A stretch of 64,000 nt of DNA. Source: Eledone cirrhosa (lineage: Eukaryota). The notes under the pieces were generated by a model. It saw only the letters and a program-made list of their open reading frames with translations, made no database searches and had not been told where the DNA came from. This document shows, in pieces, positions 1 through 60,165 of the stretch (its first letter is position 1; every line of letters begins with the position of its first letter). The translations under genes and the position numbers were made by a program. The stretch lies in assembly GCA_964016885.1 (NCBI GenBank), contig OZ024742.1, positions 229,586,001-229,650,000 of the forward strand, read 5' to 3'.

Positions 1-333
1 TTTCCTGGATTCTCTCGAAGCGTCTGTTCGTTCAGGATTGATGGGTACCCGATTCATCCCTGGGTGGTTCTCTCTCCCTCTTCATCGCGGAAATCTGTTG
101 TTTATATTTTTTGTTAATTGCTTTGTTATCTTTTTACTCAATTTTATCGTAAATCACCACCGTCCCCGTCTTTTTATATTGTTTCCTATGTGTAGGCCCT
201 TATGGTCAATACAAATTATTACTGTGCACTTTATTCGGAATTATTGTAATCCCCCCTGAACGTCTCTTTGTATTGTCCCCTACATGGCAACTCTTGTGGC
301 CAATAAATGAAATCATTATTATTATTATTATTA
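1..333 (+). mobile_element. 3' end (3' UTR and (TTA)n tail) of a Tx1-clade LINE
   Basis: Ends TGTATTGTCCCCTACATG...CTTGTGGCCAATAAATGAAATCATTATTATT, matching the Tx1 ends at ~8310-8370 and ~17438-17501. Confidence 0.8.
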
Positions 334-335
334 AG

Positions 336-541
336 GGTGGTGGATTGGCAGTATCGGTAGAGGGTCGGACGCCATGCTTTGCAGCAACGAGGTACAGCCC
401 TTTATGGTCTGAGTTCAAATCCCACCGAGGTTAACTTTGCCTTTCATCCTTACGGGGTCGATAAAATAAAGTACCAGTAATACACTGGAATAATTGCTGG
501 CCTTGTGCCAAAGTAGAAACAATTATTATTATTATTATTAT
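336..541 (+). mobile_element. tRNA-derived SINE (abundant octopus-type family), full length
   Basis: A-box-like TGGCAGTATCGG, B-box GAGTTCAAATCC, body ACTTTGCCTTTCATCCTTACGGGGTCGATAAAATAAAGTACCAGT, (ATT)n tail. Many copies in the window. Confidence 0.9.
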
Positions 542-3500
542 TGTTACTCCTTGAGTCTCAGTCATTGATGTTAGTTAACTGGAAAGTCCGTTGGAATGAA
601 TATCAAGCCACTACCTGCAGCCTCAGATATTCAGGACGTATCGGAGGATTCTTGCTGTTCCCAGCAAGCATGCCTTTTGAAGCGTTCCAAAAAGCGTGAA
701 GGGGCCGATTTTCTTTAACCATCCCTGGAAACTTTTGGAGATAGTTCCCAGTGCGCCTATGACAATCGGGATCACTTTGACTTCATGGCAGTTCCAAATC
801 CTTTTTACCTCCCACTTTAAGTCCTGGTATCGGTTAATTTTCTCCCTCTCCTTCTCTTGCACTCCCGTGTCGAATGGGCAGGCCACATCCACAATCAGAC
901 ACGATCTTTTTTCTTTGTCCACAACCACCAGGTCAGGTCTATTGTGTTCCAGTTTCTTGTCCGTCTGTATCCTAAAATCCCACAGCACCTTCACCTGATC
1001 GTTCTCTATCACCGCCTCTGGCTTATGCTCATACCATTTCTCAGAATGTGGTAAATTGTTTGCTTTGCACAGGTGCCAGTGGATTACCCTGCCCATCACA
1101 TCATGTCCAGCCCTTATAGTGGGTCTGGGCTAGGTGTTTACACTCGGATACAATGTGAGCCACAGTCTCCTCTCTCTCTCTACAGATCCTGCACAGTGGG
1201 CTAGCCTCCTCCTTGTAAATATGGTGTTTCAACCACTTCGTTTTGAGAGCCTGCTCATCCGCAGCCATTAACATTCCTTTTGTAGCCTTTTTAAGGTCTC
1301 CTCTTCTCAACCAGTTACATGTCTGTGGATCTCTAAATTCAGTTTTCTCAAAGAAGGTACTATGAAGGGATTTTTTCTGAAGGCTGCTCTTTCTCCTTGA
1401 TGTTATTTCCTCCTTGGACATCCCCTGGCCTATTGTCCCCTCCTTCAGTACAGTTCTGAGCATTGGCTCCTTACTATCAGTCACGTATTTGTGTAGGTTG
1501 TTTTTCTCCATCTGAACATAGTCCTCTATGCTGATAAGACCTCTTCCACCCTCAGATCTCCTTAAGTAGAGTCTATCGACATCACTCCTCTTGTGGAACA
1601 TGTTGTAGATAGTCAATAGCTTCCTCGTCTTCCTATCCATTTCTTTTTGTTCAGCAACATTCCATCTCAGAATTCCCGCACTGTACCTAATAATAGACAC
1701 AGCTCGGGAATTTACTGCGCTTATGGCATTTCTGCTGTTCAGATGTGACTTCAATACGCTCCTTACTCTCCGAATGTATTCAGTTCTTAACAATTCCTTC
1801 ATTCTTTTGTTGTTTATGCCATCAGCCTCCAGAACGCCCAAATACTTGTATCCTTCCTCAGAGTCAATTTCCTTTATCATCTCACCTGTTGGTATCTAGA
1901 TTCCGTTACTTCTGCTCAACATACCCCTCCTCATCACAATGACTCCACACTTACTAATACCAAACTGCATACATATATCACTGCTGAAAATACGGACAGT
2001 GTCAACAAGCACATCCAACTCCTTCTCACTCTTCCCGAAGAGCTTAAGATCGTCCATGAAGAGGAGGTGATTGATGGTAAGCCCTCCCTTTCCCAACCTG
2101 TATCCTGCTCTCACTTTTCGCAGTACACTGGTCAAGGGCATCAGGGCAAGGACAAACAGCAGAGGGGACAGGCTATCTCCCTGGAAGATACCTCTCTTGA
2201 TCTTCACGCTTCCCAAGGATTCTCCAGTTGATGTCAAATCTGTTTCCCAGGACCTCATACTTTTTCCCAACAACTGTCTGATGTTATCTGCCACCTTGAC
2301 GATCTCCAGGCTTTTGGTGATCCAAGAATGAGGCACCATGCCAAATGCCTTTCTGTAGTCTATCCATCCCATTGGAAGATCAGTGTGTCTCCTCCTGCAA
2401 TTCCCCATTACCATCTTATCAATAAGTAACTGGTCCTTTGTACCACGTGACTTCTTTCGGCATCCTTTCTGTTCGTCCGGTAACAAGTTGTTTGTGTGGA
2501 GGTGATGGTAGATTTCCTCAGACACAATGCTCGTCAACAGTTTCCACATTACGGACAGACATGTGATAGGTCTATAGTTGGTAACATCATTACCCTTGAT
2601 TCGGTCTTTCATTATCAGAACTGTGGTACCTTTTGTCAACCACTCTGGTACCTCACCTGACATCAAGCAGTCATTGAACATGGTTGTCAGTTTCGGGTAG
2701 AGGGATGTTATATTTTTAATCCAATACCCCTGCACACCATCTGGGCCTGGTGATTTCCAGTTGGTTAGTTTTTTGGCCTGCCCCTTAAGAGTTTCAACTG
2801 TGATACTCAAATCAGTTTGTTGGTGTGCCTGTTAACCGATCTCTTTCTGTACTGTCTCAATCCACACTGCCTGGTCATTATGTATAACATCCTGCTCCCA
2901 TATTCCTCTCCAGAATGTTTTAGTTTGTTCCGCCCCAGGGATCAAGTCGTTGCCTCTTTCTTTCCTCTCAAGCTGTCCAAACAGCATCTTCTGGTTGTTG
3001 TCGAACATGCGGTTCTGTTTATACTGACTGACTCTGTTCTCGTATCGCCTGATTTTTGCACTCTTTGCTACAATGCGTTGCTTCAGTTCCTCTATGATAA
3101 TATTTAGCTTTTTCCTCCTAGTTTTGTACTTTATTTCCAGTCTATTTTTAGTGTCTATGTTTTTTAGTGTCCCATTCAGTAGTGACTCAAGCTTTCCAAT
3201 GTCATTTCTCATTTCCCTGATTTGACCATTCAGTCGTTTCTTCCACCAAGGCTCTGCTCTTTCTTGTCTGTTGTTTCCTCTCGCTTTTATACCAAGTAGT
3301 TTCCTCACCGTATTTGCTGTTGCTTTGAGGATATTGTTGCACTGGTGAAGGCTCCTCGCCTCAAGGTATGGGATGACTTTGTTTACCTTAGCTGTTGTTT
3401 CTTTTAACTTTTTCCTGTCTACAAATCTTAGGTTCATAGGTCTCCCACTATCATTGTTCAATTTATCTACCACTAAATTTAGGATGTCAACCAAATCTTG

Positions 3501-4333
3501 TTCTAGCCCGTCAGCATTCATCTCCTAGGTGGCCGTATCTCTGTTCCAGGTTTTATTTATCTCAGTATTCATATCATTGTCTGCTTCGGGTGGTTCCTCC
3601 GTTCTCTCGACCTCTTCACCTTCATTTCCCACTGGCTCGTTTGCCTGGCATACTCCACCCTCCATCTCCAAGCTAATCTCAGTTCCTCCAGTTCCAGCTC
3701 GCTTATCCACCCATTAGTTCTTATTACCCGAGCCTGCCCGGCCAATTTTTGTTCATCTAATTTAAATAGACCAATCTCGTTCCAGATGTTATGCATCCGT
3801 CTCCTATAGCCCCTCTCCTTGGGGTTACTTTTCAGGTAATATTGCATAACAGTTCTATTCAATTCTTTCGTCCAGTTGGTTCTGGTCCGTTTCCTTCTTC
3901 TTCCTCCGACACCAGCAGTATTTGGTTGACAGCCAGGTCCCTGCTGCTGAGCCAGGGAGCACCTGTTGGGTGAGAGTCTGTCACATGATGTTCTAGTCTC
4001 CATTTCACCGTTATTTGAACTGTTTAGGTTCGGTATTTAAACACTCTTATCGAGGATTGCCGAATGTATGGTTACATAACCACCTGTGGATTCACCGTCT
4101 CCGGTGGTTGCGTCGCTCCACGTGGCTCTTGTCTGGCATTATCACGCTGTAGACGAACACAAATAAAGAAACAAACAAACAGGCAGAAATAATCCCAAAA
4201 CTGAATAAGCATAAATTTCATTGTAATGTAGTGTTCGAATGTCTGACTTAGTTTTTCCCTTCCCTTCTCTGTCCGTCCGTTTGTTTCTCTCTTCATTCTT
4301 ATTTTCTTTACGTTTTTTTGTTTTTGTTTTTAT
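542..4333 (-). mobile_element. R4/Dong-clade non-LTR retrotransposon (family A), near full length, decayed
   Basis: One broken ORF with RT followed by a restriction-like endonuclease, flanked on both sides by (TAA)n on its own strand. The 5' boundary is approximate. Confidence 0.85.
623..4003 (-). pseudogene. RT + CCHC zinc knuckle + restriction-like endonuclease ORF of Dong-A, disrupted
   Basis: Fragments 3569-4003 (WTKELN, RGYRRRM), 2832-3521, 1896-2810 (KSPGPDG, NYRPITCL, GIFQGDSLSP, LFMDDLKL), 1101-1880 (CRIC..ETVAHIVSEC) and 623-1099 (NRPD, DVACP, EK..RYQDL). Confidence 0.9.
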
Positions 4334-4335
4334 TG

Positions 4336-4344
4336 TATTATTAA

Positions 4345-4388
<44 letters not shown>
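4336..4388. repeat. (TTA)n microsatellite between Dong-A and Tx1-A
   Basis: Read directly from sequence. Confidence 0.95.
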
Positions 4389-4389
<1 letters not shown>

Positions 4390-7300
4390 ACAACAAAAAA
4401 TACAGACACCACTAACGCAAACACTTCGCCAATAACATCATCACCAACAGCAACATCGACACCACCTCCACAATCCCCGAAACGCAAACAACCTAAACAA
4501 ACACAAGTACAAATAAACACACAAATACCTGAAATTGCAGACACCCCACCTACAACAAACACTGACATATCCGAAACAACACCACCAAAACCATCACCAC
4601 CACAGTCACCAAAACGAAAACAAATAAAACCACACCAACAAAATGTTAAAAACTTCGTGCTTGTCAGAAGGGCCAACGATAAACTGATGGCCCTCTTAGC
4701 ACGAAGCGAGGACATTCAAACAGAGGGGGAGATTTTTGAAATGAGCACATTTTGCGTGCCAGAAGATTTGCTTCTGGTCCGAATGTCACTCAAATTCCTT
4801 CAAATAAATTCGAGAGAGCTTTCCTCAAGACGTGGAAACCCCGAATGTGAAAACCACATCAAGACTTTTAAAGGGGTTCCCCCCAAAAAACCTACCAACC
4901 ATGGGGTTCGAACCACCCGGCCTTCACAAAACCCCGGGAGGTAAGTAAACCTTCCCTCTCTCTCTTAGCTTACCAATATGGCCAGATTAAGAGTAGGAAG
5001 TTTAAATGTTCGCGGCCTGGGTCACCCTGGAAGCAGGGTCGCCTGCTCAACGACCTCAGGTCGCTGGAAATGGATGTGATTGCCGTCAGCCAGACCAGAA
5101 TTTCCAACACGCGCGCACTAGCCCCCATTTTCGACGACTATCAGATCTTCGCATCTGTTAGCAGACCAGTAATGGGGGGTGGGGTGGCAGTGATGTTTAG
5201 GAAAGGACTGAATCTCGAGGTAAGGCCGATCTTCCGGGACCCGGACGGGAAGTTGGTGGTCCTGGACGTGAACAATAATGAAGGTGGTGCCTTTAGACTG
5301 CTGGCCGTCTACGCCCCTACAGGGGCCGGACGACCGGACTTCTTTAGGCGCCTGGAGACCTTTCTGGGTACGCCTCGCCCTTAACTGTTAGCGGGGACTG
5401 GAATGGCATCTTAGACTCACGCTGGGATCGTGTAGGAGTAGCCGATAGGAGTGAGAGGTGCAAAAGCCTCAAGCACCTACTCAGTCAATTCCAACTGTCT
5501 GGCAGGTATCGACTAGATTTCCCCAATGTGCCAGTATGGACATGGACCAACCGAATGGGGTCATCTAGATCGTATAAAAACATGATCTTCATTAGGAAAA
5601 TAAATAGAAATAGTGTGGGCTGCCCACTTTTTAAAACGGTCGCCTATTCAAATCTCAAATTTGTGATCTGTACGGTCGACCTAGATAAAACGCGTAGGTT
5701 AGGACCGGGTTACTGGAAGCTGAACATGTCATTTCCGGCACGTAAGGCTTACAGGGACCGAGTCAACAATGTAGTTAAGCAAAAGTTGACAGGGGGGATC
5801 ATTAACAACAGATGGTGGGGGGCTCTCAAAAGAGAGATTAGAGTAACTTCGATAGAGTTCAGCAAAGAACTAGCGTTAGAGAAAAATAGAAAGGAGGGGG
5901 AGCTGGTAGATAAGTGAGACGAGGCTATGTGTAGTGGCATTGCAACTGACGTGCTAGCGGCGAGAATGGCATTAGACCATTTCTTCCATGCGAAACATGA
6001 AGGTTGCATTGTCAGAGCTAAGGCGGGTGCGCTGAGAAACGATGGAAACAAAGCTGTTCGATGGGCCCGCGTCGCGGAGGCGCAGCGTGGTAATAAAACC
6101 ACAATTCGGTCTTTGGCGGACCAAGACGGACACGAGATGAGCGATTCCAAGTGGATGTCTGAGGCCTTTCGCCAGCACTTTGCTGGGATACATTAGACAA
6201 CTTCAGGCCCATAACTCTGCTCAACACAGAGTTTAAGATTTTGGCCAAGGTGTTAGCAAAGGGATTGGCGCTTGTCGTCGAGGATTTGGTTGGGGAGGCG
6301 CAAACTTGCTAAATTCCAGCCATGTCCATACACGACAATCTCCACCTCATACGATACATCACAGAGAGGGTTGGGTGTAAACCTGGCTTCGGTGGGGCAC
6401 TGATCAATTTAGATCAATCGATAGCATTCGATAGGGTCGACCATCGGTATCTGGAGTTTGTCCTCAAAGCAGCTGGCTTCGGCCCTGTCTTCAGAAGCTG
6501 GATCGCTGCAATGCACAGCGGCACACGCTCGGTGGTCAAGGTTAATGGCCACCTCTCGGAACTATTTCGGCTCTCCCGATCGGTCCGTCAAGGGTGCCCT
6601 CTTTCTTCCCTTCTGTACGTATTGACTCTCGAGCCTTTACTGCGGAAGCTGGAGCTGTTGCAGGGCATCCCGCTCGAACCGGGACGTAGAAAGGCGGTGT
6701 CGGCTTATGCGGACGACATCACCGTGATGGTGTCGAACACCTCAGAAATCGAGGTGGTTGGCACCTTATTGAAGGAATATGAAAGGTTGACAGGAGCCAA
6801 ACTTAACCCGGAAAAGTCGGTGGGCTTGAAGCTCGGAACCTGGAGAGGCAAGCCCATGCCGTCCAACAGCGTCGTGGGGTGCTGGACGGACGGACCGGTA
6901 AAGTTACTCGGGGTTTGGTTCGGACCAGACCTCCAGGTGGAAAAGAATTGGGACGAGGTAACGAGCAGAGTAGCCAGTCTCACCCAAAAATGGGCTGGGA
7001 GGAAGCTATCACTGAAAGGTCACGCGGAGGTGGCGAATGCGTACATCGCGTCCGTCATCTACTACCGCCTGACCGTCGTGCCTTGCCCCCGTCCGCGCCT
7101 CGTCAAGTTGGAACGGCTCCTCTTCAAATTCTTGTGGAGAGGATAAGTTCCGTTGGTGAGGCGGTCCATCTGCTGCCAGCACCCTCTACGCGGAGGGCTG
7201 GGCATGCCGTGGCTAATGATGCGCAGACATGCGTTGAGGCTGCAACATCTCCAGACATTCTGCCTCAACGGTGAACAGGTGTGGTCGCCGTTGATCAGAC

Positions 7301-8370
7301 GGGCCTTTCCGCAGCTCATTTCTTTGACTGAGCTGCAGTCCTGGGTCAAGAAGAGACCGAGACTGGGTTACTGGCACCTGGAATGTTGCCAGGCACTCAC
7401 TGCCCTCTACCAAGCGGACAATGCGATCAGTGGAACTTCCACTCTCGAGTTCTATAGAGGATTAGTGGTGGGCAAGTGCGATGACGCACTCGGAGAAGCT
7501 TTGGGCCTCGACGAAGTCGAACTGACCAGTCTGTACCGGAGGACTTTTGAGCCAGGGACGATGGACAATTTTCAGAAATCCCACGCTTGGCAGTGCTACC
7601 GGGGGCACTTCCGGTTCGGGATAAACTCTACAAGCACAGAAGTGCTGTGAGACGGACCTGCCCAAGATGCGCACAGAGCGACGAAACCGTTATGCACGCA
7701 CTTGTCCAATGTCCGTGCATTACTGACTTGTGGAGTTATGTCGAACAGCTACTGTCCCGTGTGGAACAAATCCAGCTATCGGCCGAGTTCATAGTGAAGT
7801 TCGATCCACCGCCTTCCTTAGGTCAGGAAGAGCAGGAAATTTTCCTCTGTCTGGTGGCAGTTGCGAAAGAGTTTATATGGTGGACCAGGTTAAAAGGACT
7901 GAAGACAGACACTTTTCTCTTCGGCCAATCCCTCATCAACTTCTTCAAGTTTCACCTGGAAAGGAAGGTGAGGGTGGAGAGAGAAGTGCTGCCTCCCAGT
8001 ACATTTGCTAAAAGGTGGGTGAATGTGGCGAGAATGGCTCGTGTGAATGGGCCTACTCTGACCATGCGCCTATAGGTTAGCTAACTTGAGGAGAGGGGTG
8101 TTCTCCCTAGGTGCCCTAGAAGCACAGGGTGGTTCAGGATTGGTGGGGTACCCGAGTCACTCCAGGGTCGTCCACCTCCTATCGGGGAATTTATTTTTTT
8201 ATATTTATGCATAGTTTATTTTATATTTTTATATTTTCATTGTTAAATTAGTCTTGCCATTGTGCACTTTTACTCGACCTTATTGTATACCCTCACTGTC
8301 CCTGTCTTTGTATTGTCCCCTACATGTCGGCCCTTGTGGCTAATAAATGAAATCCTTATTATTATTATTA
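4389..8370 (+). mobile_element. Tx1-clade (L1 group) LINE, subfamily A, copy 1, 5'-truncated
   Basis: ORF1 C-terminal remnant (stop at 4944), APE-RT ORF2, and a 3' UTR ending AATAAATGAAATCC(TTA)n. Confidence 0.9.
4978..8075 (+). pseudogene. Tx1 ORF2: APE endonuclease, RT and C-terminal CCHC, with frameshifts and an internal deletion
   Basis: Starts MARLRVGSLNVRGL. Contains VYAP, GPGYWKLN, AFDRVDH, RQGCPLS, YADD and CPRC..ETVMHALVQC. Confidence 0.9.
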
Positions 8371-10342
8371 CTACGGCTGCATTTATCTTGCGTTATGTTC
8401 ATACGAGTTATCACCAAATCACAACCAGTGATCTCAAGAAACAACAAGGTCCGCCATGTTCAAGAAAGAATATACATACTCACACATGCGCCTTTAGTTG
8501 TTTAGACTTGTGATGTACTTATATTGACAGAATCTTCCTTAGTATATGGGCAGTTCCCATTAGTACTATCTTTTGTATTTCTCCTATACGCGAGTTTCCT
8601 GGGATTTGCGATAAGTAATCATTAGACCCCTTAGGTATCATTCCTAGAGCGCCTACAACCACTGGTATTGTTTTAGTTCTCAATTTCCACATTTTTCCAA
8701 TTTCTATCTCCAGGTCCTTATACTTGCTCAATTTTTCAAATGTTTTTATAGATACATTCTTGTCTATTGGAACGGACATATCAATTAGCAGGCATACCCT
8801 CTTTTTAAAGTCCTTCCGTATTATATCAGGTCTATTTGCATCTATTTTTCGGTCTGTTTGGATGCTAAAGTTCCACAAGATTGAGATGTGATCTTTTTCA
8901 AGTATGGGAGGTGGTTGATGCTCCCACCAATTCTTTTGATGGGGCAGGTCAAAATGCTTACACATTATCCAATGTATGTATTGTGCAGCTCTGTCATGCC
9001 TGTTTAGGTATTCGGTTGGAGCTATAGGACTGCACATTGAAATTATATGGTCAATGGTCTCTGGTTGTTTTTTGCATACACGGCATAATGGGCTGCATCC
9101 ATTTTTTATTATGTTGGCTTGGTAATTTTTTGTTGGCAGACACTGATCTTGTGCTGCTATAATCAGTCCTTCAGTCTCCGATTTCAGTCCAGAGGATGCC
9201 AACCACTGATGGGTTAAAGTTTTGTCAACATCAGGATTGTTAGCTCGTTCTGGGTATTTTCCATACAGAGGCTTTTCTTGCCATTTCTTAGCCAGTTTCT
9301 GTAGCAGTTCTTTCTTTGCAGTTACTTTTACCTGCTTTGCTTTTTCTGTATTTTCCATTTCAGCAGTAACTGGGACTTCTGAAATTTGTAGTCCATTACT
9401 GTATCTTTGTGCATCTTTTGTAATGGAGTATGATCTTTTGATGCTTTCGTGTTTCAAAACGAGATTGATCATCCAATCATGTGATTCCCTTAGATATTTA
9501 GATAACCCAATTGTTGCAGTTTTCAACGCAATGTCTAACTGGATTAACCCACGTCCTCCTTCTTTCCTAGGGAGATATATTCTATCTGTATCTGCCTTAG
9601 GGTGATGCATTCTGTGCATGGTTACGAATTTTCGAATTTTTGTATCGAGCCTACGGATCTCTGTGCTTGACCAGTTGATGACATTGTAACTGTAGGTTAC
9701 TACTGGTATAGCAAGCGTGTTTATGGCATCGATCCTATTCCATGCATTCAATTCCGTTCTTAAGATTGCTCTTACTCTGCGGTATCATTCCTTCCTTCTT
9801 CTTTCCCTCATTGTCGAGTGCTTGATTCCGTCTCCTTCACAAACACCTAGATATTTGTAAGTTTCTTCTTGATCAAGTTCTCTTATCACATTCTCCCGAT
9901 CAAGATTAATGTCTGAACTCTTCAGCAGCTTTCCTCTGGTGAACGTTGCTTTGGCGCATTTATCTAGTCCAAACTCCATTTTAATGTCATCCATTTTAAT
10001 GCCTTTGCAATTGTTCATCATTTTTTGCAAATAGTTTCAGGTCATCCATGCAGAACAAGTGATTAATGGTTTTGTCATAGACTTTATATCCATGTTTTGT
10101 TTCATTGAGCATTTTACTTAATGGTATAAGTGCGATGCAGAATAAAAGCGGTGATAAAGAGTCACCCTGAAAAATTCCACAATTAATATTAACTTCTCCA
10201 GCTTCCAGTGATTTTGTTTCACTATTCAAAAGGAGTGTCGTTTTCCACGTCTTCATACTGAATGACAAAAACCTCCTGACAACGGGAGATATTTTGAAAA
10301 TCTCTAAACATTTTTCAATCCAACTGTGTGGCAAACTATCGT
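8371..10342 (-). mobile_element. R4/Dong-clade LINE, family B, 5'-truncated
   Basis: GIFQGDSLSP, LFCMDDLKL, AAQDQ, CRVC..ETIDHIISMC, NRHD, NRPD and EK..KYKDL in ORFs 8519-10406. The 3' UTR runs into the TAA tract shared with the Tx1 tail. Confidence 0.88.
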
Positions 10343-10418
10343 TTGGCCGACTGAATACACAGGTGTGTTTTTTTTTTCTCGTTTTCCCCGTCGCCTTTCT
10401 TTTCAATCATTATTTTCT

Positions 10419-10523
10419 CAAATCCTGCCGAGGTTAACTTTGCCTTTCATCCTTACAGGGTCGATAAAATAAAGTACCAGTAATGCACTGGGTATTTGTG
10501 GCGTTGTGCCAAAAGTAGAAACA
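10419..10523 (+). mobile_element. 5'-truncated SINE with ATTATTTTCT target-site duplication
   Basis: SINE body. ATTATTTTCT occurs at 10409-10418 and 10524-10533. Confidence 0.8.
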
Positions 10524-10583
10524 ATTATTTTCTGTTTATCTTCTATTTCTAAATCTATCTTCTGATAAAGGACTATTATTATC

Positions 10584-10721
10584 AGCATAGTTACATCCCT
10601 TTACGATCTGAGTTCAAATCCCGCCGAGGTTGACTTTGCCTTTCATCCTTACGGGGTCGATAAAATAAAGTACCAGTAATACACTGGAATAATTGCTGGC
10701 CTTGTGCCTAAAGTAGAAACA

Positions 10722-10754
<33 letters not shown>
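10584..10754 (+). mobile_element. 5'-truncated SINE with (ATT)n tail
   Basis: B-box and body match the 336-541 copy. Confidence 0.85.
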
Positions 10755-10755
<1 letters not shown>

Positions 10756-11985
10756 TTTGAGTCTCAATCATTGATGTTAGTTAACTGGAAAGTTTGTTGA
10801 AATGAATATCAAGCCACTACCTGCAGCCTCAGATATTCAGGACCTATCGGAGGGTTCTAGCTGTTCCCAGCAAGCATGCCTTTTGAAGCTTTCCAAAAAG
10901 CGTGAAGGGGCCAATTTTCTTTAACCATCCCTGGAAACTTTTTGAGATAGTACCTAGTGCGCCTATGACAATCGGGACCACTTTGACTTCATGGCAGTTC
11001 CAAATCCTTTTTACCTCCCACTTTAAGTCCTGGTATCGGTTAATTTTCTCCCTCTCCTTCTCTTGCACTCTCGTGTCGAATGAGCAGGCCACATCCACAA
11101 TCAGGTACGATCTTTTTTCTTTGTCCACAACCACAAGGTCAGGTCTATTGTGTTCCAGTTTCTTGTCCGTATGTATCCTAAAATCCCACAGCACCTTCAC
11201 CTGATCGTTTTCTATCACCGACTCTGGCTTGTGCTCATACAACTTCTCAGAATGTGCTAAATGGTTTACTTTGCATAGGTGCCAGTGGATCACCCTGCCC
11301 ATCACATCATGTCTCCAGCCCTTATAGTGAGTCTGGGCTATGTGTTTACACTCGGATACAATGTGAGCCACAGTCTCCTCTCTCCCTCCACAGATCCTGC
11401 ACAGTGGGCTAGCCTCCTCCTTGTAAATATGGTGTTTCAACCACTTCGTTTTGAGAGCCTGCTCATCCGCAGCCATTAACATTCCTTCTGTAGCCTTTTT
11501 AAGGTCTCCTCTTTTCAACCAGTTCCATGTCTGTGGATCTCTGAATTCAGTTTTCTCAAAGAAGGTACTATGAAGGGATTTTTCCTGAAGGCTGCTCTTT
11601 CTCCTTGATGTTATTTCCTCCTTGGACATCCCCTGGTCTATTGTCCTCTCCTTCAGTACAGTTCTGAGCATTGACTCCTTACTATCAGTCACATATTTGT
11701 GTAGGTTGTTTTCTCCATCTGAACAGTCCTCTATGCTGATAAGACCTCTTCCCCCTTCAGATCTCCTTAAGTAGAGTCTATCGACATCACTCCTCTTGTG
11801 GAACATGTTGTAGATAGTCAATAGCTTCCTAGTCTTCCTATCCATTTCTTTTTGTTCAGCAACATTACATCTCAGAATTCCCGCACTGTACCTAATAATA
11901 GACACAGCTCGGGAATTTACTGCACTTATGGCATTCCTACTGTTCAGATGTGACTTTAATACGCTCCTTACTCTCAGAATGTATT
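10755..11985 (-). mobile_element. Dong-A copy 2, 5'-truncated
   Basis: Closely similar to ~548-1780. ORF 10844-11905 has the zinc knuckle and NRPD endonuclease. TAA tracts on both sides. Confidence 0.9.
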
Positions 11986-12185
11986 TATTATTATTATTAT
12001 TATTATTATTGGTCTAAGCGGACGTATTTTGCTCGCTCACAGTAAGTCGCTTTATTTGCCTGTTTAAATTATTTGTTGTTAAATATTTCTTGTTGGATAA
12101 GGGATATAAGCCCTTAGACTTTGCCCCGTGAAGGGGAAAGTATATTATTTGGGCCTTTTGGTCCAAATATTGGAACTTTTTTTAC

Positions 12186-14181
12186 ATGTTAACAAATTTA
12201 CGAAGAAAGAAAAACATGGCCGAGCCACGACCCCCAACGATATGTCGACTGTCGTGCGACAACGACGTAGAAGTTGAGAGGAGCGCTACAGCGAAATTAA
12301 CACACATTGATAACACAAACACCACCACAAACAAGGTAAACAAAGACACCAATGATACCAATAAGAACACTAATTTTGAAAAAAATGACAGTAACAGCGA
12401 CAACGAAAATACAGATAACAAAAAAAAAAATAACAAATACAACAACAATATCAACACCACTAACATGGAAACAAATAGCGACAACACCAACAGCAACAAT
12501 ACCAACTGCACCGAGAACAACGGTGGCAACAAAGACAACAATGATAACAGCGACAGTGCTAACAACAACACCAACAAGAACAACGTCAACAACACCCCCA
12601 ACGAAAACAAGACCACTTTCGCTGCGACAGCAGCAAAAAAGAGGCCATGCTTCAACATGGACCTCTCAAACAAAGATGAAAAGTTGGCCCAGGCATGGAA
12701 GCTCATCAAACAAGAGCAAACTTGGGCCAACTTAACTGTCCCGGTAGAAGCTATTGAGGCAGTGGAGCGCAAAACGGTGCATTATAGATGCATCTCAGCA
12801 CAAACCAAAAGGGCAGCGTTAATCCCACAAGAAGATATCGAAGTCGCGCTGAGGTGCATCAGAGAAGACACCCAGTACATAGAGAGGGGCAGACAGTACG
12901 GCACCATTTCGGTGTTGTTCACGTCAGAAGCCCTCGCGATGAAACACGCCATGACTCCTTGCAAAACCAGCATGTACCACTCCCACATGGGAAAAAGAAC
13001 GGCCCGTCTCCGCATTCCCAGAATCCCACCAGGACTTGACATGTGGTGGCTTCTGGGATGTGTGATTGTGGAGGGGACAGATGCAGTCCCTATAGAAGTG
13101 ACCAGAACGGCCAGAGAGGACTGGTCCGGGGTTGACCTGGAGATCCTTCTCCAGATCAGGCCCGAGAATGTGAAGACAATCCCAGACCACATCCGCCTTC
13201 AGAATGGGACTGTCATTCACATTATGACCGAAGGCAAAAGGCCGCAGTGTTTTGTTTGTTGGGAAAAAACCCTTTTGCGAGCCTTCTGCCCTCAACTGCT
13301 GAAAGAGGCAAGGGGTCGAAAGGCTCCACTGCTGCCGACGCCGGGGCGACGACCACAACCAACACCTGCACCGGCAAAACCACCAACAACAACACCAATA
13401 GAAAGACCACCACCAACATTGACCACCCAGGGAGGAAACGAGGAAACCTGTCAAATTCCCCCTCCCCCACAAAATACACACACCGATAAAACCTTAAACA
13501 TACATACAGACATACTTACAGAAACAGACCCCTAATCTACCAGTAGTGAAAATGAGGGAAATCCAAAATCCCCCAAAATACACAAAAGGAAACACAAAAA
13601 TAAAAAAAAAAAACTCAACAAAGCACAAAAGCACCCACAATAAAAAACGCAGACACCACCCACGCAAACATCTCTCCAATAACACCAACATCAACACCAC
13701 CATCACCATCACCAGAATCCCCCAAACGCAAACAACCGAAACAAACGGAAGAACAAATATACACACAAACATCTGAAACCACAGTCATCGCACTCACAAC
13801 AAACACAGATACAACCGAAACAACACCGCCAAAACCATCATCACCATAGCCACGCAAACAAATAAAATCACACCAACAAAACATAAAATTTGGTGCTCGT
13901 CAGGAGGGCCAACAAGGAACTGATGGCCCTCGTAGCACGAAGTGAAAATATACAAAAAGATGGGGAAATGTTTAAATCGAGCACATTTCGCGTGCCGGAA
14001 GATTTGGTTCTGGTGCGAATGTCGCTCGACATATTCAAAGAAATACGAGACAGCTTTCCTCGGGACGTGGGAACCCCGAACGTGGGAACCCCGAACGTAA
14101 AACCAACTTCAAGACTTTTAAAGAAACCCCACTAACTATGGAGGTCGAACAATCCGACATTCACAAGAGCCCGGAAGGTAA
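12186..14181 (+). pseudogene. Tx1-A ORF1 (gag-like; Asn/Thr-rich N-terminus, degenerate CCHC knuckle), disrupted
   Basis: The 449-aa ORF has GRQYGT and GKRPQCFVC...RAFCPQ, homologous to 58337-59785. The C-terminal part matches 4657-4944. Confidence 0.8.
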
Positions 14182-14216
14182 GTAAACCTTCCTCTTTCTC
14201 TGTTTAACCTGCCAAC

Positions 14217-17207
14217 ATGGCCGTATTAAGAGTAGGATGTTTAAATGTTCGAGGCCTGGGATCGTCCTGGAAGCAGGGTCACCTGCTCAGCGACCTCAGG
14301 TCTATAGAAATGGATGCAATTGCAGTCAGCGAGACCATGATTTCCGACACGCGCGCACTAGCCCCCATTTTCGACGACTATCAGATCTTTGCATCTGTTA
14401 GCCAGCCGGTATTGAGAGGCGGGGTGGCAGTGCTGTTTAGGAAAGGCCTGGATCTCGAGGTAAGGTCGATCTTCCGGGACCCGGACGGGAAGTTGGTGGT
14501 CCTGGACGTGAACAATAATGAAGATTGGTGGCCGTCTATGCTCATACTGGGGCAGGACGGCCGGACTTCTTTAGACGCCTGGAAGCCTTTCTGGGTACGT
14601 CTCGCCCTTTACTGTTAGCGGGGGACTGGAACGGCATCTTAGACGCACGCTGGGACTGTGTGGGAGTATCCGATAGGAGACGGGGGTGCAAAAGCCTCAA
14701 AAACCTGATCAGCCAGTTCCAACTGTTTGACATGTACCGACTAGATTTCCCTAATGCGCCAGTGTGGACCTGGGCTAACCGCATAGGGTCATCTAGATCG
14801 TATATAGACATGATATCCATTAGGAAAATAGACAGAAATAGTGAAAGCTGTCCACGTTTTGAAACGGTCGCCTATTCAGATCACAAGTTTGTGATCTGTA
14901 TGGGCGACCTAGATAAGACGCGTAGGTTACTGGAAGCTAAACATGTCATTTCCGGCACGTAAGGCTTACAGGGACCAGGTCAACAATTTAGTTAAGCAAA
15001 AGTTGACAGGGAGGTGGGATCATTAACAACAGATGGTGGGAGGCTCTCAAAGGAGAGATTAGAGTAATGTCGATAGAGTTTAGCAAAGAAGTAGCATTAG
15101 AGAAAAATAGAAAGGAGGGAGAGTTGGTAGATAAGTTAGACGAGGCTATTGGTAGTGGCATTGCAACTGATGGGCTAGCGGCGAGAATGGCATTAGACCA
15201 TTTCTTCAATGCGAAACACGAAGGTTGCATTGTCAGTGCTAAGGCGCGCGCTCTGAGAAACGATGGAACCAAAGCTGTTCGATGGGCCCGCGTGTCAGAG
15301 GCACAGCGTGGAAATAAAACCACGATTCGGTCTTTGACGGACCGAGACGGGCTCGAACTGAACGATTCCAAGAGGATGTGTGAAGCCTTTCGCCAACATT
15401 TTGCTCGGTTGTTCGGGGGAAGTGGCGGACTTCAGTCCCTACCTCGATGGATTGCCGCAACTCTCGACGGCTGACGCTGGGCGCTGCGAAAGGCCAATTA
15501 CTTCAGCCGAGATTCAGGACGCCCTTGTAGGCTGCATGAGGCGCAAGTTACCCGGTTTGGATAGTCTGCCCTACGAGCTTTACGTAAATATGCCAGACTT
15601 GTTCTCCAATCTCCTCGAAGCCCTCTACCGCAACTGGCAGCAAAACGGGAGTATTCCCAGTTCTGTGAGCCGGGGCGTAGTGACGCCGATAAGGAAAGAC
15701 GAGAACAAGAGCGACACATTAGACAATTTCAGGCCCATAACTCTGCTCAACACAGAGTTTAAGATTTTGGCCAGTGTGTTAGCTTGTCGTCGGGAATTTG
15801 GTTGGGGAGGCGCAAACTTGCGCAATCCCAACCAGGTCCATACACGACAACCTCCACCTAATGCGATACATCATAGAGAGGGTAGGGTGTAAACCTGGCT
15901 TCGGTGGGGCTCTGATCAATTTAGATCAATCGAAAGCATTCGATAGGGTCGACCATCGGTACCTGGAGGCTGTCCTCAAGGCGGCTATCTTCGACCCCGT
16001 CTTCAGAAGCTGGATCGCTGCAATGCACAGCGGCACCTGCTCGATGGTCAAAATTAATGGCCACCTCTCAGTGGATAAGAATTGGGACGAGGTGACGGGC
16101 AGGATAGTCAGTCTCACACAGAAATGGGCTGGGATCAAGCTATCACTGAATGGTCGGGCGGAGGTGGCGAACGCGTACATCGCGTCCGTCCTCTACTACC
16201 GTCTGACTGTCGTCCCTTGACTCCGTTCGCGCCTCGCCATCTTGGAGCGGCTCCTCTTCAAATTCTTGTGGAGAGGTCAGGTTCCGCTGGTGAGGCGCTC
16301 CATCTGCTGCCAGCACCCTCTACGTGGAGGGCTGGGCATGCCGTGGCTAAGATGCGCAGGCACGCGCTGAGGCTGCGGCATCTCCAGATATTCTGCCTAA
16401 ACGGTGAACAGGTGCGGTCGCCGTTTGTCAGACAGGCCTTTCCGCAGCTCGTTTCTTTGACCGAGTTGCAGTCCTGGGTCAAGAAGAGACAGAGACTGGG
16501 TGACTGGCATCTGGAATGTTGCCAGGCTCACACTGCCCTCTACCAGGCGGGCAATGCGGTCAGTGGAACTTCCACTCTCGAGTTCTATAGAAGATTAGTG
16601 GTGGGCAAGTGCGACGACGCACTCGGAGAGGCTCTGGAAGTCAACGAAGTCGAACTAACCAGTCTGTACCGGAGGACTTTCGAGCCTGGGACGATGGATA
16701 ATTTCAAAAAATCCCTCGCTTGGCAGTGCCACCGGGGGCACTGCCGGTTCGAGATAAACTATACAGGCACGCAAGTGCTGTCAGACGGACCTGCCCGAGA
16801 TGCGCGCAGAGCGACGAAACCGTTCTGCACCACTCGTCCAGTGTCCGTGCATTACTGACTTGTGGAGTTATGTTGAAGAGCTGTTGTCGCGTGTAGAACG
16901 GATCCGGCTATCAGCCGAGTCCATAGTGAAGATCGACCCGCCGCCTTCTTTTGGCTAGGAAGGGCAGGCAATTTTCCTCTGTCTGGTGGAAGTAGCGAAA
17001 GAGGTTGTATGGTGGACGAGGTTGAAAGGACGGAAGACAGACACTTTTCTCTTCGGCCAATCCCTCATCAACTTTTTCAAGTTTCACTTGGAAAGGAAGG
17101 TAAGGGTGGAGAGAAAAGTGCTGCCCCCCAGTACATTTGCTGAAAGGTGGGTGAATGTGGCGAGAATGGCCCGTGTGAGTGGGCCTACTCTGGTCATGCG
17201 GCTGTAG
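14217..17207 (+). pseudogene. Tx1-A ORF2 (APE-RT), frameshifted, RT core deleted
   Basis: MAVLRVGCLNVRGL, GDWN, SDHK, NFRPITLLN and KAFDRVDH are present. The QG/YADD segment is missing. Confidence 0.9.
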
Positions 17208-17940
17208 GTAGGTAAATTTGAAGAGGAGAGGGGTGCCCTTCCAGGGTGCTCTCGAAGCGTTGGGTCGTTCAGGACTGGTGGGGTACCTGAGCGAACCCTA
17301 GGTGGTCATCCCCCCTATTGGGGAATTTTTTTCTTGTTTTAATTTTATTGTTACTTTACTGTTACTTTGTTATTGTTACTTTGTTTATTCATATTGTTTA
17401 CTCGATTTTTCTGTAAAACCCCACTGTCCCAGTCTTTTGTATTGTCCCCTATATGTCGGCCCTTGTGGCCAATAAATGAAATCATTATTATTATTATTAT
17501 ATTTGATGTTATAGTTGTATTTATTGTGATAATACTAATAATTATTATTATTGCCTTAGATATTTTGAAACACCCAGTAGTCAATCCTTTGATTTCCAGA
17601 CCTCATACATAAAATAACAACGCTACCAGACAATTATCTTCTAGCTCATTATCCTTACATTAGTCACTTTAGTGGTACATTTGTGACTTATATTCCCATT
17701 TGCGACATTATTATCGTTACATCAAAGGTTCTTTTCCTCTGTAATGCCGACTTTGAGACGGCTGATTAGCAGAGTAGTTAGAACCTCATATATAAAGCTT
17801 TGCAGTAATCAATTTGACTGTTTTCTGTCCTCATTTCAATTCCTGTAATTATCAATTTATATTTCATCCTTTCGACGTGGATAAATAAAGTAGTCGCCCA
17901 GTACTGGTGTCGGGTTTTCTTCTATATGTCTCACTAAGAT

Positions 17941-18230: not shown

Positions 18231-18299
<69 letters not shown>

Positions 18300-47973: not shown

Positions 47974-48051
<78 letters not shown>

Positions 48052-53942: not shown

Positions 53943-54400
53943 TATGTTAGTGGTGTTGATATTGTTGCATTTGTCATTTTTTTTTTTTTCGTTATCTGTA
54001 TATTCGTTGTCGCTGTTACTGTCATTTTTTTTCAAAATTAGATTTCTCATTGGTATGATTGGTATCTTTGTTTAGATTGTTCGTGGTGGTGTTTGTGTTA
54101 TCAATGTGTGTTAATTTCGCTGTAGCACTCCTCTCAACTTCTACGTCATTGTCGCACGACAGCCGACATATCGCTGGGGGGCATGGCTCAGCCATGTTTT
54201 TTTTTCTTCTTAAATTTTTTAACATGTAAAAAAAGTTCAAATATTTTGGCCTTTTGGCCCAAATATTATACTTTCCTCTTCGCGGGGTAAAGTCTAAGGG
54301 CTTATATCCCTTACACAACAAGAAATATTTAACAACAAATAATTTAAACAGGCAAATAAAGCGACTTACTGGGAGCGAGCAAAATACGTCCGCTTAGATC
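53943..54400 (-). mobile_element. 5' fragment of Tx1-A (5' UTR and start of ORF1)
   Basis: Reverse complement of 12011-~12466. Confidence 0.9.
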
Positions 54401-54604
54401 AATAATAATAATAATAATAATTGTTTATACTTTTGGCACAAGGCCACCAATTATCCCAGTGTGTTGTTGGTACTTTATTTTATCGACCCCGTAAGGATGA
54501 AACGTAAAGTTAACCCCGGCGGAATTTGAACTCAGACCATAAAGGGGCGTAACTCTTTACTGCAAAGCATGGCGTCCAACCCTCTACCGATACTGCCAAT
54601 CCAC
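54401..54604 (-). mobile_element. SINE with (ATT)n tail
   Basis: Reverse complement of the family consensus. Confidence 0.9.
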
Positions 54605-54638
<34 letters not shown>

Positions 54639-54881
54639 TTTTCTTTATTAACCACAAGGGTTCACATAAAGTAGACATTAAGGACAGTACAGGACAATAC
54701 AGGACGGTACAAATGGGCATTTCTGCGTGAAAAAAAAACAGAGGTTGAAATAAAATAACAAAGAAAAATTCCCCAATAGGGGGGAGACTTCCAAGGGACA
54801 TTTGTGGAGAAAGCCCATTAAAAGACCACAGTGGCCCTGACCACCAGGGCAAGTGCCCTCTCCCAGTTTTCCACCTTTAAT

Positions 54882-57800: not shown

Positions 57801-58302
57801 AGGTTGGTGAGACTCTTGCACCCTCCTTCCCTATCCACTAATCCCACACAATACCAGCGTGCATCTAAGATCCCGTTCCAGTCGCCCACTAACACTAAAG
57901 AGCGGGACGTTCCAAGAAAGGTCTCCAGACGCCGGAAGAAATCAGGCCGCCCTGCTCCTGTCGGGGCATAGACTGCCACTAACCTGAAAGCTTGTCCGTC
58001 TCCGCTGGTCACGTCCAGCACCACCAACTTACCTTCTGGGTCCAGGAAGATGGCCCGTATGGCAGGATCCAAACCTCTCCGAAAAAGCACAGCAACTCCT
58101 CCCCCGATCCCGGACGGCTGGGAGATGCGTACACATCGTAGCCGCCGAAGATCGGTGCGAAAGCCTGTGCTTCGGAGATTCTGGTCTCGCTGATGGCCAC
58201 TACATCTATGTTTAGTGACCTGAGGTCGTTGAGCAGGTGGCCCTGCTTCCATGACGACCCCAAGCCACGCGCATTTATGCTGCCTATTCTGAGTGAGGTC
58301 AT
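54882..58302 (-). pseudogene. Tx1-B ORF2 (APE-RT-CCHC), two frameshifts
   Basis: Starts MTSLRIGSINARGL. Contains GDWN, YLDR, TDHK, KSPGLDG, QGCPLS, YADD and CPRC. Confidence 0.92.
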
Positions 58303-58336
58303 GTTGAAAAGGAGTGGAAAAGATGGGAAAGACCAC

Positions 58337-60165
58337 TTACCTTACTTCTCGTAGGGGAAGGGCGGCTTTTCCATCCTTTTCACTGCTTGTGGCCTCCTCA
58401 GGAAGGATGTCCTTATAAATCCTCCTGGAGAGTGCTTGTCGGAAGGTTCCGATGTCTTTGGGGAATTTTTGCTTTCGTGTCATGTACGTTTTCTGTGTGA
58501 TGCGAGGGATTTGTATGTGTGGAGGTGGTGTGAATTTTGGGGTTGTTGTGTAGTCTTTTTCTGTGATGCTGGTGTTCTGTTGGATGTAGTGTAATAATTG
58601 CTTGTTGTTCAAATTTAATGCTGTGTAGTGTGTATCGTTTTGGTTGTTTTGTTTTGTTTGCGTTTGTTGTGGGTTTGTTTCTGTTTCGCATTTTGGTGAC
58701 TTTTGTGGTGTAGGTGATGGTGGTGTTGGAGTTAATGATGGTGATGGTGTTGGTGTTTGGGTTGATGGGGTTGGTGATGCAGGTGTGGATGGTGGCATAT
58801 CTGTCCTAACTTTTTTGTTTCTTAGTTTATTTGTTTCCCTCTGTATTTTGTTTTTGGAGGGGGAAGGAAGAGAATTTTTTCTTTTTTGGTTTCTTTTTTT
58901 TTTTCCGGATATCGTTTCCCACTCCTCGTCGTCACAATCTGTCTCCAGTTGTGATAGGCCGGGGAGTGGAAAATCCTCCACAGCCGTTAGTTTTGGTTGT
59001 GGTGTGGTGGATGGTGTAGGCGCTGGTGCTAGTTCTGAAGCGTTGGGTGGTGGTGGTGTTGGTTTTGCTGGTGGTGGTAGTGGTATTGGTTTTGCTACTG
59101 TTGCTGGGGTTGTTGCTGTTATAGTTGCTTCTGTTGTTGCTGCTACAGTTGTTGCTGCCATCTCTGCTACTGGTGGTGTTGATGGTTGTGTCACTGGGGC
59201 GGGTAGGAGAGGTGGCCTCAACCTTTTAGCCTGAGGGCAGAAAGCCCTTAGGTGGGTTCCTTCACCACAAACGACACACCTAGGTCTTCTGCCCTCGACA
59301 ATTACCGTGAGGTGGCTGCCGTCAGTGAGGTCTATTACCTCTGGGATCTCCTCAATGCTTTTTTGGTCCGCTTGGATCAGGAGCTCCATCCCAGATCCGG
59401 ACCAGTTTTCCTGCTTTTCTTTTGCTACTGCTATTATTTTCATGTTGGCTTCGATGCCGGCGAGGACAGCCGCTATTAGCCAGGGAATTTCGATGGCCGG
59501 TGGAACGTGGGTCACCCTGATCTTTACGAGTCTCTGGCCACAATAGCTTGGGACGAGAGTGAGGTCGTCACTTTTTAATGGGGCCATGGAGTGTTCTCTA
59601 GCCTCCTCTGGTGTTTCAAAGAACACATCCACGGTTCCATACTTTTGCCCACGTCTGATGTGGGTTTTTCTTGCCCACACATGTCCCAAAGCTTTTTGGA
59701 TTTGGGACTCGGATGCCCGTTCCACTCGGCGCGATTTTACATTTATTGTTCTATACGACACGGTGCACAGGCGCCGATGCTCCATTTTATTAGGTGGGGG
59801 GGGGGGGGGGTGAGGCTGACCCTGTACCCATCTTTCTTTACCATTTGTTTGGAATTTTCTAAATCTTCTTGAGTTACCGTGAACGCTTCGAATTGTTTTG
59901 CTACGATGGCGAAACTGTGGGTCGGTTTTATAATGTCATTGTTGTTGTTGTTGCTATCGTTAATATTAAGTTTAGTTTCAGTTGTGGTGTTGGTGACGTC
60001 AGTCGTCTTTGGTGCGGAAGAGTCCATTTTGCTTGATTTCATTTCGACATCACGAGTTAATTTATTTTTTTTCTTCTTTTGTTTCTGTTGTCGCGGTGGT
60101 GGTGGGGGTGGTGGTTGTCGCGGTGGTGGTGGTGGTGGAGGCTTTAACACCTGCAGTCATTGGTA
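58337..60165 (-). pseudogene. Tx1-B ORF1 (gag-like CCHC knuckle, Pro/Thr-rich), frameshifted near a homopolymer at ~59793-59810
   Basis: GQKYGT and GRRPRCVVCGEGTHLRAFCPQ. The start is uncertain. Confidence 0.8.

What the first reader, a model, noticed from the sequence alone, without database searches (positions are those of the whole stretch)
1..17501. Self-extending chain of three retroelement types joined at (TTA)n/(TAA)n, with strict polarity
Seen: Tx1 tail(+), SINE(+), TTA, Dong-A(-), TTA, Tx1-A(+), TTA, Dong-B(-), then SINE(+), TTA, Dong-A(-), TTA, Tx1-A(+), TTA. Nearly every junction is a TTA tract; the Dong-B 5' junction is the exception. Tx1 and the SINE always read on the TTA strand, and both Dong families on the TAA strand. 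Known: Dong (R4 clade) targets (TAA)n, and some Tx1 families (Kibi, Koshi) target other microsatellites. Inference: an APE-type and an RLE-type LINE use the same microsatellite on opposite strands. Each insertion leaves a new tract, so the array supplies its own targets.
Basis: partly seen in the sequence, partly recalled or inferred. Interest (0 to 1): 0.75.

Follow-up and report, generated by a model that had tools for sequence, protein, structure and literature searches.

The report
Opposite-strand jumping genes share TTA repeats
Two unrelated kinds of jumping genes sit end to end in the same short TTA repeat, each kind almost always facing its own way, here and at many other places in this animal genome, likely because their enzymes cut opposite strands and each insertion leaves fresh repeat for the next; a short passenger element likely borrows one kind's machinery.

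Summary
The chain is real and the polarity holds genome-wide. Tx1-like APE LINEs start directly after (TTA)n in 30/30 Tx1-A and 30/30 Tx1-B copies (background 0.6%). Dong-like RLE LINEs carry (TAA)n at 38/39 3' ends and 28/30 truncated 5' ends. Only 3 of 303 tract junctions point the wrong way. Mixed chains occur in 4 of 60 random 10-kb pieces, so this locus is one of very many.

Corrections: the SINE is not tract-specific (8/59 random copies). It inserts at short ATTA sites with 8-23 bp duplications, and shares a CTTGT hairpin and duplication type with Tx1, its likely driver. A 240-bp non-tract block with a third SINE splits the chain in two. Self-supply is passive: Tx1 shows no clear preference for element-made tracts (43/60 vs 21/38). 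Full-length Tx1 copies dominate (32/39) and join in one fixed phase (58/60), suggesting that a UUA leader anneals to the target.

Each habit has precedents (Dong, Kibi/Koshi, TRAS/SART, SINEU); I found no paper on a TTA-targeting Tx1 or on this sharing. The scan already reported this system at several other places in this genome. New variant of a known kind; interest 0.45.

The parts
1..315 (+). 3' end of an old Tx1-like LINE (Tx1-C); continues about 525 bp left of the window, 5'-truncated, no TTA at its 5' junction
   Evidence: 69-77% to Tx1-A; best 70% to any copy held
316..333 (+). (TTA)6 tract
334..522 (+). Full-length SINE, 189 bp; A/B-box-like head (recalled motifs), 3' GGC-CTTGT-GCC hairpin
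   Evidence: no ARAGORN or Rfam match
523..540 (+). (TTA)6 tract
541..4336 (-). Dong-A copy 1: RT, zinc knuckle, PD..D..K nuclease; lacks about 0.9 kb of 5' leader; ORF broken by stops and frameshifts
4338..4388 (+). TTA tract (14 perfect units at 4347-4388)
4389..8355 (+). Tx1-A copy 1 (subfamily A1): 5'-truncated inside ORF1 (position about 1613 of a 5828-bp natural copy), APE-RT-zf ORF2 with an internal deletion
8356..8370 (+). (TTA)5 tract
8371..10342 (-). Dong-B, 5'-truncated; a second RLE lineage, 39% protein identity to Dong-A; no TAA at its 5' junction
10343..10552 (+). 93% copy of 17939-18147: host DNA with a 5'-truncated SINE (about 10419-10523) flanked by a 10-bp duplication starting ATTATT
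10583..10722 (+). 5'-truncated SINE, preceded by an 8-nt ATTATTAT run
10723..10752 (+). (TTA)10 tract
10753..11984 (-). Dong-A copy 2, 5'-truncated, 95% to copy 1
11985..12008 (+). (TTA)8 tract
12009..17484 (+). Tx1-A copy 2: complete 5' end, ORF1, broken APE-RT-zf ORF2 with a deletion of about 325 bp, 3' GGCC-CTTGT-GGCC hairpin and AATAAA
17485..17499 (+). (TTA)5 tract, right end of the chain
53944..64000 (-). Second chain of the same guild: Tx1-B, TTA, full-length Tx1-B (54637-60542), TTA, SINE, TTA, 5' 480 bp of Tx1-A

Best explanation
The region is a pile of independent retroelement insertions in TTA/TAA microsatellite, in which Tx1-like APE LINEs face the TTA strand and Dong-like RLE LINEs face the TAA strand, likely because the two enzymes nick opposite strands and each RNA tail pairs with its own nicked strand. 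Shown: both ends of both LINE kinds sit in the tract with fixed polarity across the genome, and each insertion leaves a tract on either side. Inferred: the Tx1 APE nicks the (TAA)n strand, the UUA tail pairs with the freed end and primes reverse transcription, and the second cut lies about 9-20 nt away, as read from SINE and truncated-Tx1 duplications. Dong does the same from the other strand. Inferred: the SINE is mobilised in trans by the Tx1 proteins through a shared 3' CUUGU hairpin, and needs only a short ATTA site. Inferred, weaker: full-length Tx1 RNA carries a short UUA leader that anneals to the tract and fixes the 5' junction. Chains grow passively, because each insertion raises the local number of tracts.
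For: Tx1-A 5' ends 30/30 and Tx1-B 5' ends 30/30 have (TTA)2 within 12 nt (queries did not contain the tract); background 0.58%. Of 39 Tx1-A copies chosen by the 3' end, 32 are full length and 32/32 follow TTA. Dong-A: (TAA)3 at 38/39 3' ends and 28/30 truncated 5' ends, (TTA)3 at 0/30. Census of tracts of 4+ units: 44/45 junctions in random DNA and 256/258 in element-centred loci have the expected strand; the tail-independent 5' junctions give Tx1 8+47 on the TTA side and 0 on the TAA side, Dong 8+57 on the TAA side and 0 on the TTA side. APE at the N-terminus and best match human L1 ORF2p, E 6e-56; no APE, best match R2, PD..D..K near the C-terminus. Many Tx1 3' flanks run on into GTA or TTG compound microsatellites, which a UUA tail would not make. 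SINE duplications in 50/88 copies against 8-13/88 in shuffled pairings; 41/50 begin ATTA or TTA by my count; truncated Tx1 copies show the same type, 15 and 18 nt. Hairpin stems differ on both sides between families: AACC/GGTT 35, GGCC/GGCC 30, SINE TGGC/GCCA 77. Copies in the chain differ in truncation point and divergence.
Against: 5'-truncated Tx1 copies are less strict: of three plain truncations among the 39 copies chosen by the 3' end, one has ATTATT and two have no TTA; in a set biased towards tracts 13/21 rows had TTA within 25 nt (about 6 of the 8 misses look like other families or chimeras). The old Tx1-C in this chain has no 5' tract. Tx1 5' tracts have a guild element on their left in 43/60 cases against 21/38 for random tracts: no clear excess. 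Dispersion 4.8 is inflated because one element gives two junctions. The hairpin search patterns required a CYTGY-type loop, so loop conservation is partly built in; stem changes count families, not independent events. No cleavage data, no RNA data, no phylogeny with named Tx1 or R4 references.
Confidence: 0.8

Rival explanations
1. Tx1 has only a loose ATTA preference, like the SINE, and brings its own (TTA)n at both ends (5' leader and 3' tail). The strict 5' pattern would then be mostly element-made, and only Dong is a true tract specialist that later colonises those tracts.
For: Fixed phase TTATTA|TT in 58/60 full-length copies; truncated copies less often in tracts; the SINE, probably moved by the same enzyme, is in a tract in only 8/59 random copies.
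Against: If full-length copies landed at short ATTA sites they should show duplications with unique DNA; by eye I saw none in 32 copies with both ends. Most 3' flanks are long or compound tracts, and 43/60 5' tracts abut another element's end. 13/21 truncated rows still follow TTA.
Confidence: 0.12
2. The chain arose by local duplication, unequal crossover or co-mobilisation of a SINE-Dong-Tx1 unit, not by separate targeted insertions.
For: The order SINE, Dong-A, Tx1-A occurs twice; a 210-bp direct repeat brackets the second half (10343 and 17939), and short-read contigs of one sample join 17939 to the 10344-type sequence.
Against: The two halves differ unequally (Dong-A 95%, Tx1-A 83-86%) and have different 5' truncation points and internal deletions. 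Neighbour pairs vary freely across 219 tracts. This could at most explain how the two sub-chains were joined.
Confidence: 0.05
3. Insertion is not targeted; copies survive or pile up in TTA-rich, low-constraint DNA, and the polarity only reflects each element's tail.
For: 3' polarity is set by the tail; LINE junctions are confined to 7 of 60 random windows.
Against: 5' junctions, which tails cannot explain, are base-exact and one-way; sister Tx1 families in the same genome end in ATCT or TCTG repeats instead.
Confidence: 0.03

Closest known systems
Dong (Bombyx mori), DongAg, DongBg; R4 clade
   Same: TAA microsatellite target (PMC3812793, passages); single ORF with RT and C-terminal PD..D..K nuclease; Dong-R4 is listed as recently active in Octopus vulgaris (PMC13282606, part 1 of 3 and passages).
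   Different: Two lineages only 39% identical share the target here, and share it with an APE element on the other strand. No named Dong sequence was available for a tree.
Kibi (TC)n, Koshi (TTC)n and crocodilian (TTCC)n/(TTTC)n Tx1 families
   Same: L1-group APE LINEs inserted in one microsatellite (PMC4494074 passages; PMC3812793 passages).
   Different: Repeat unit TTA is not among the targets named in the passages read; invertebrate host; mostly full-length copies with a fixed 5' phase; sister families on ATCT and TCTG.
TRAS and SART in Bombyx (TTAGG)n
   Same: Two LINE families inserted in one repeat in opposite directions; nuclease domain sets the target; RNA-target annealing proposed (PMC7265360, passages).
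   Different: TRAS and SART are both R1-clade APE elements (recalled) at telomeres; here the pair is APE versus RLE in dispersed microsatellites.
SINEU with Tx1-Mar (crocodilians); maize ZmSINE2/3 with LINE1-1_ZM
   Same: SINE mobilised by a Tx1 family, inferred from shared target, with tandem copies (PMC4494074, section 16 and passages); L1-clade SINE/LINE pair sharing a 3' hairpin with compensatory changes (PMC3472496, passages).
   Different: Here a SINE with a tRNA-like head shares both the 3' hairpin and the duplication signature with Tx1; the passages read on SINEU rest on shared target, age and 5' heads.
R1 (APE) and R2 (RLE) in 28S rDNA
   Same: APE and RLE elements converging on one repeated locus (recalled, no call).
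   Different: Separate sites in a gene, same orientation (recalled); no self-made targets.

Membership tests
Tx1 clade (L1 group) | ORF2 with N-terminal APE, RT and C-terminal zinc-binding domain, closest to L1 among solved proteins | tested here: met
   L1 ORF2p E 6e-56 over residues 14-864; PF03372, PF00078, PF13966
Tx1 clade (L1 group) | Separate ORF1 with a CCHC zinc knuckle (feature recalled) | tested here: inconclusive
   CX2CX4HX4C present in Tx1-B ORF1; the pattern was not found in the window's Tx1-A copy 2 (His absent in that copy)
Tx1 clade (L1 group) | Target-site preference in more than 20% of flanks (criterion of PMC4494074) | tested here: met
   60/60 and 32/32 full-length 5' junctions
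Tx1 clade (L1 group) | RT phylogeny groups it with Xenopus Tx1L, Kibi, Koshi rather than other L1-group clades | not testable with these tools
   No named reference sequence was returned: 64 homologues carried no informative name; Atlas look-ups gave no result
Dong / R4 clade | Single ORF, no APE, RT closest to R2-type, C-terminal zinc knuckle and PD..D..K nuclease | tested here: met
   1141-aa ORF in L213, best match R2 E 4e-30; RPD motif in all three window copies
Dong / R4 clade | Insertion into (TAA)n in sense orientation | tested here: met
   Dong-A 38/39 3' and 28/30 truncated 5' junctions; Dong-B seen only as a neighbour in censuses
Dong / R4 clade | RT phylogeny places it in R4 rather than NeSL, HERO or R2 | not testable with these tools
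   No named R4 references on hand
tRNA-derived SINE | tRNA-like head with A and B boxes | tested here: inconclusive
   Box-like motifs seen by eye (consensus recalled); ARAGORN 0 genes; Rfam no match
tRNA-derived SINE | High copy number, variable target duplications, no ORF | tested here: met
   101 matches in 600 kb random DNA; duplications of 8-23 bp in 50/88 copies
Stringent SINE/LINE pair (SINE with Tx1) | Shared 3' sequence and hairpin; same target signature | tested here: met
   Dong-A and Dong-B 3' ends lack the CTTGT hairpin
Stringent SINE/LINE pair (SINE with Tx1) | Mobilisation in trans by the LINE proteins | not testable with these tools
   needs a retrotransposition assay

The most novel reading that the evidence does not exclude
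These Tx1-like LINEs choose and seal their target by RNA-DNA pairing at both ends: a UUA tail primes at the nick and a co-transcribed UUA leader anneals to the tract, which explains the rare excess of full-length copies in one fixed phase. The same proteins drive a SINE of roughly half a million copies through a CUUGU hairpin. Together with two Dong lineages on the other strand they form a genome-wide community that makes most of its own (TTA)n targets, while sister families keep the hairpin but have switched tail, nuclease loop and target to ATCT or TCTG.
Probability: 0.4. Interest if true: 0.65.

Novelty: new variant of a known kind. Interest (0 to 1): 0.45.

Why it matters
It gives a clean natural pair, an APE and an RLE enzyme, that read one three-base repeat from opposite strands, with young near-intact copies of both (open frames of 1140-1200 aa). 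Sister Tx1 families at 66-67% protein identity use other repeats and differ in the nuclease hairpin loop, so loop-versus-tail swaps could test how far enzyme or RNA sets a LINE's target. It names a likely driver for one of the most abundant SINEs of this genome. It also shows that most long TTA tracts here (26 of 38 sampled) abut these elements, which matters for microsatellite origin and for repeat annotation. It does not overturn a rule: every ingredient has a precedent.

Tried and rejected
Tandem duplication as the source of the repeated order: rejected. SINE as a strict tract specialist: rejected. Four reference ORFs that I first labelled Dong were Tx1-B; one search corrects this and its counts are the ones used. 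Naming the clades through databases: homologue and cluster look-ups gave no useful names; the Atlas returned nothing. Rfam and ARAGORN found no RNA family in 1-18,500 apart from three below-threshold matches on a TA repeat. Expression and transcript starts: no RNA holder listed. Empty-site alleles: short-read contigs of four runs were too fragmented in the repeats. The 5' junctions of the ATCT and TCTG sister families were not seen: one runs off its locus, the other abuts a satellite. A search for papers on heteroduplex-primed 5' junctions in R2 gave 0 papers with all six terms, so that precedent is recalled only. The random sample is 60 pieces, not the 80 planned. No RT tree was built.
Full report
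Setting. The window is G000:C3:229586001-229650000 in a 3.0-Gb animal genome. The host is likely an octopod: the SINE resembles octopus SINEs as I recall them, and Dong-R4, L1-Tx1 and SINEs are the families reported as abundant or active in octopuses (PMC13282606, PMC8967140). That label is inference and was not tested.

Observation. Seven perfect tracts of 5-14 TTA units join the elements in 1-17,500. Three points need adding. First, 10343-10582 is not LINE: 10343-10552 is a 93% copy of 17939-18147 and contains a third, truncated SINE with its own 10-bp duplication. The array is therefore two sub-chains, and this block is the Dong-B exception. Second, the leftmost Tx1 is an old family, about 70% identical to any copy I hold, and its 5' junction left of the window has no tract. 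Third, a second chain of the same elements lies at 53944-64000 on the minus strand.

Identity of the elements. A natural open copy of the Tx1-A group (L270, 1150 aa) has an N-terminal APE, RT and zinc-binding domain; its best solved match is human L1 ORF2p, E 6e-56. Tx1-A and Tx1-B ORF2 are about 75% identical. A natural open Dong-A (L213, 1141 aa) has no APE, matches R2 best (E 4e-30) and carries a PD..D..K motif near the C-terminus. Dong-A and Dong-B are only 39% identical. The names Tx1 and Dong rest on anatomy and target; no tree with named references could be built.

Not a duplication. The two Dong-A copies are 95% identical, the two Tx1-A copies 83-86%, with different truncations and deletions. 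Nearest relatives among the loci held range from 70% (Tx1-C) through 94% (Tx1-A copy 1) to 98% (Dong-A copy 1, Dong-B). This fits accretion over time, though the figures depend on which families I searched.

Targeting, Tx1. Searches with the first 292-293 bases, without the tract, gave 1555 and 1708 candidates; I examined the 30 loci returned of 40 scored for each (each set includes the window's own copy). All 30 Tx1-A and all 30 Tx1-B copies have (TTA)2 within 12 nt upstream; (TTA)3 within 20 nt in 26/30 and 30/30. Backgrounds in 600 kb of random DNA are 0.58% and 0.16%. Of 39 other Tx1-A copies chosen by the 3' end, 32 reach the 5' end, all after TTA. The other seven: three run into other Tx1 sequence, one is a full copy with an inversion that also starts after TTA, and three are plain truncations, of which one has ATTATT with a 15-nt duplication and two have no TTA. 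In a wider set biased towards tracts, 13 of 21 non-chimeric truncated rows had TTA within 25 nt, after 2 rows were dropped as chimeric. Truncated copies are thus less strict than full-length ones.

Targeting, Dong. Of 39 Dong-A copies chosen by the 3' end, 38 have (TAA)3 downstream; 30 are truncated within my reference, and 28 of these have (TAA)3 within 60 nt upstream, none (TTA)3. The nine longer copies have a TAA tract further up by eye. Dong-B was not searched by itself; it appears as a neighbour in the same orientation.

Polarity. I classified the neighbours of every tract of 4 or more units. Random DNA: 38 tracts, 45 junctions with a family call, 1 on the wrong strand (an inverted piece of a Dong). 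Element-centred loci: 181 tracts, 258 junctions, 2 wrong. The 5' junctions, which a tail cannot set, are one-way without exception in this census.

The SINE. It gives 101 matches in 600 kb, roughly half a million copies if the sample is typical. Among 59 random copies with an intact 3' end, 8 have (TTA)3 and 18 (TTA)2 within 30 nt upstream (background 0.2% and 1.9%); none has (TAA)2. Duplications of 8-23 bp were found in 50 of 88 copies, against 8-13 after shuffling the pairs; 41 of 50 begin ATTA or TTA by my count. It prefers a short ATTA site, in the Tx1 orientation. Truncated Tx1 copies show the same kind of duplication (15 and 18 nt). SINE and Tx1 tails share a four-pair hairpin with loop CTTGT followed by an A-rich stretch, GAAA and TTA; stems are GGCC/GGCC in Tx1-A (30 of 101 LINE tails), AACC/GGTT in Tx1-B (35) and TGGC/GCCA or GCCT in the SINE (123 of 165). 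The patterns required such a loop, so only the stem changes are independent evidence. Dong tails lack it. Tx1 is the likely partner.

Mechanism. Inferred from the standard target-primed model: Tx1 nicks the TAA strand, its UUA tail pairs with the freed end, and the second cut falls about 9-20 nt away; Dong works from the other strand. Full-length Tx1 copies join in one phase, TTATTA|TT, in 58 of 60 cases, whereas duplications of variable length should give mixed phases, as truncated copies do. With the excess of full-length copies, this suggests a UUA leader that anneals to the tract. No RNA data were available to test it.

Self-extension. Every targeted insertion leaves a tract on each side. 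Of 38 random tracts, 26 abut a guild element and 19 do so on both sides. LINE junctions fall in 7 of 60 random pieces with variance/mean 4.8, where about 2 is expected from paired junctions alone; 13 of 20 pieces with a tract have none. But tracts used by Tx1 have a guild element on their left in 43 of 60 cases against 21 of 38 for random tracts, no clear excess. Growth is passive: more tracts, more hits. Four of 60 random pieces hold both Tx1 and Dong at tracts, of the order of ten thousand such chains; the sample covers only the larger contigs.

Known systems. Dong on TAA, Kibi and Koshi on TC and TTC (PMC3812793, passages), crocodilian Tx1 on TTCC/TTTC and SINEU with Tx1-Mar (PMC4494074, passages and section 16), TRAS and SART in opposite directions on TTAGG (PMC7265360, passages), L1-clade SINE/LINE pairs with a 3' hairpin (PMC3472496, passages). 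Also seen: PMC13282606 (part 1 of 3, passages), PMC8967140, PMC5786205, PMC4758252, PMC3747384, PMC4640811 (passages only); none of these passages mentions a TTA-targeting Tx1, shared Tx1/Dong tracts or a Tx1 partner for an octopus SINE. Searches. Kojima and Fujiwara 2004, Ohshima and Okada 1994, Repbase and Dfam were not seen, no supplements were opened, and any of these could already record the target.

Earlier notes of this scan. Nine unreviewed notes on other pieces of this genome describe the same system or its GATA sister. They are not independent support. One led me to test truncated copies more widely.

Verdict. A real, genome-wide pattern; a new variant of known microsatellite targeting, notable for APE/RLE sharing, the SINE partnership and the sister families on other repeats. 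Interest 0.45.

Noticed in passing
window 10343-10552 and 17939-18147: A 210-bp direct repeat (93%) brackets the second half of the chain. In three runs of one sample, the single contig over 17500-17939 continues into the 10344-type sequence, not the 17940-type. Could be another allele, an unequal crossover product, templated capture at the Dong-B 5' end, or an assembly join. Unresolved.
   Followed up: partly
L289, L238, L069, L285 (ATCT); L271 (TCTG): Sister Tx1-like families keep a similar 3' hairpin but end in (ATCT)n or (TCTG)n. The nuclease hairpin loop reads TNRIGSSRSY in both TTA families and RNHSGQSRSY in L289, whose ORF2 is 66-67% identical.
   Followed up: partly
window 4939-4980, 14177-14220, 58298-58342(-); L265, L270, L271, L289: Every Tx1 family checked has GGTAAGT or GGTAGGT and a pyrimidine run just before the ORF2 start codon; it looks like a conserved splice-donor-type or reinitiation signal at the ORF1/ORF2 boundary.
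   Followed up: no
window 60356-60395 (-): The Tx1-B 5' UTR contains a GGGC-CTTGT-GCCC hairpin-like motif followed by (TTA)3, like a captured SINE tail and tract.
   Followed up: no
L244, L247, L259, L273; L021, L179, L242, L263; L004, L141, L168: At least three further, unidentified repeat families end at (TTA)n tracts with recurring left flanks; the guild is larger than the three types in this chain.
   Followed up: no
L159, L165, L176, L266, L166: Tx1 copies fused to other Tx1 copies, internally deleted or partly inverted are common, suggesting template switches or deletions between neighbours in chains.
   Followed up: partly
window 43014-43908 (-) and 47949-49094 (+): A diverged Tx1-like fragment (64-67% to Tx1-A) and an RT fragment of another LINE, outside the chains.
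   Followed up: no
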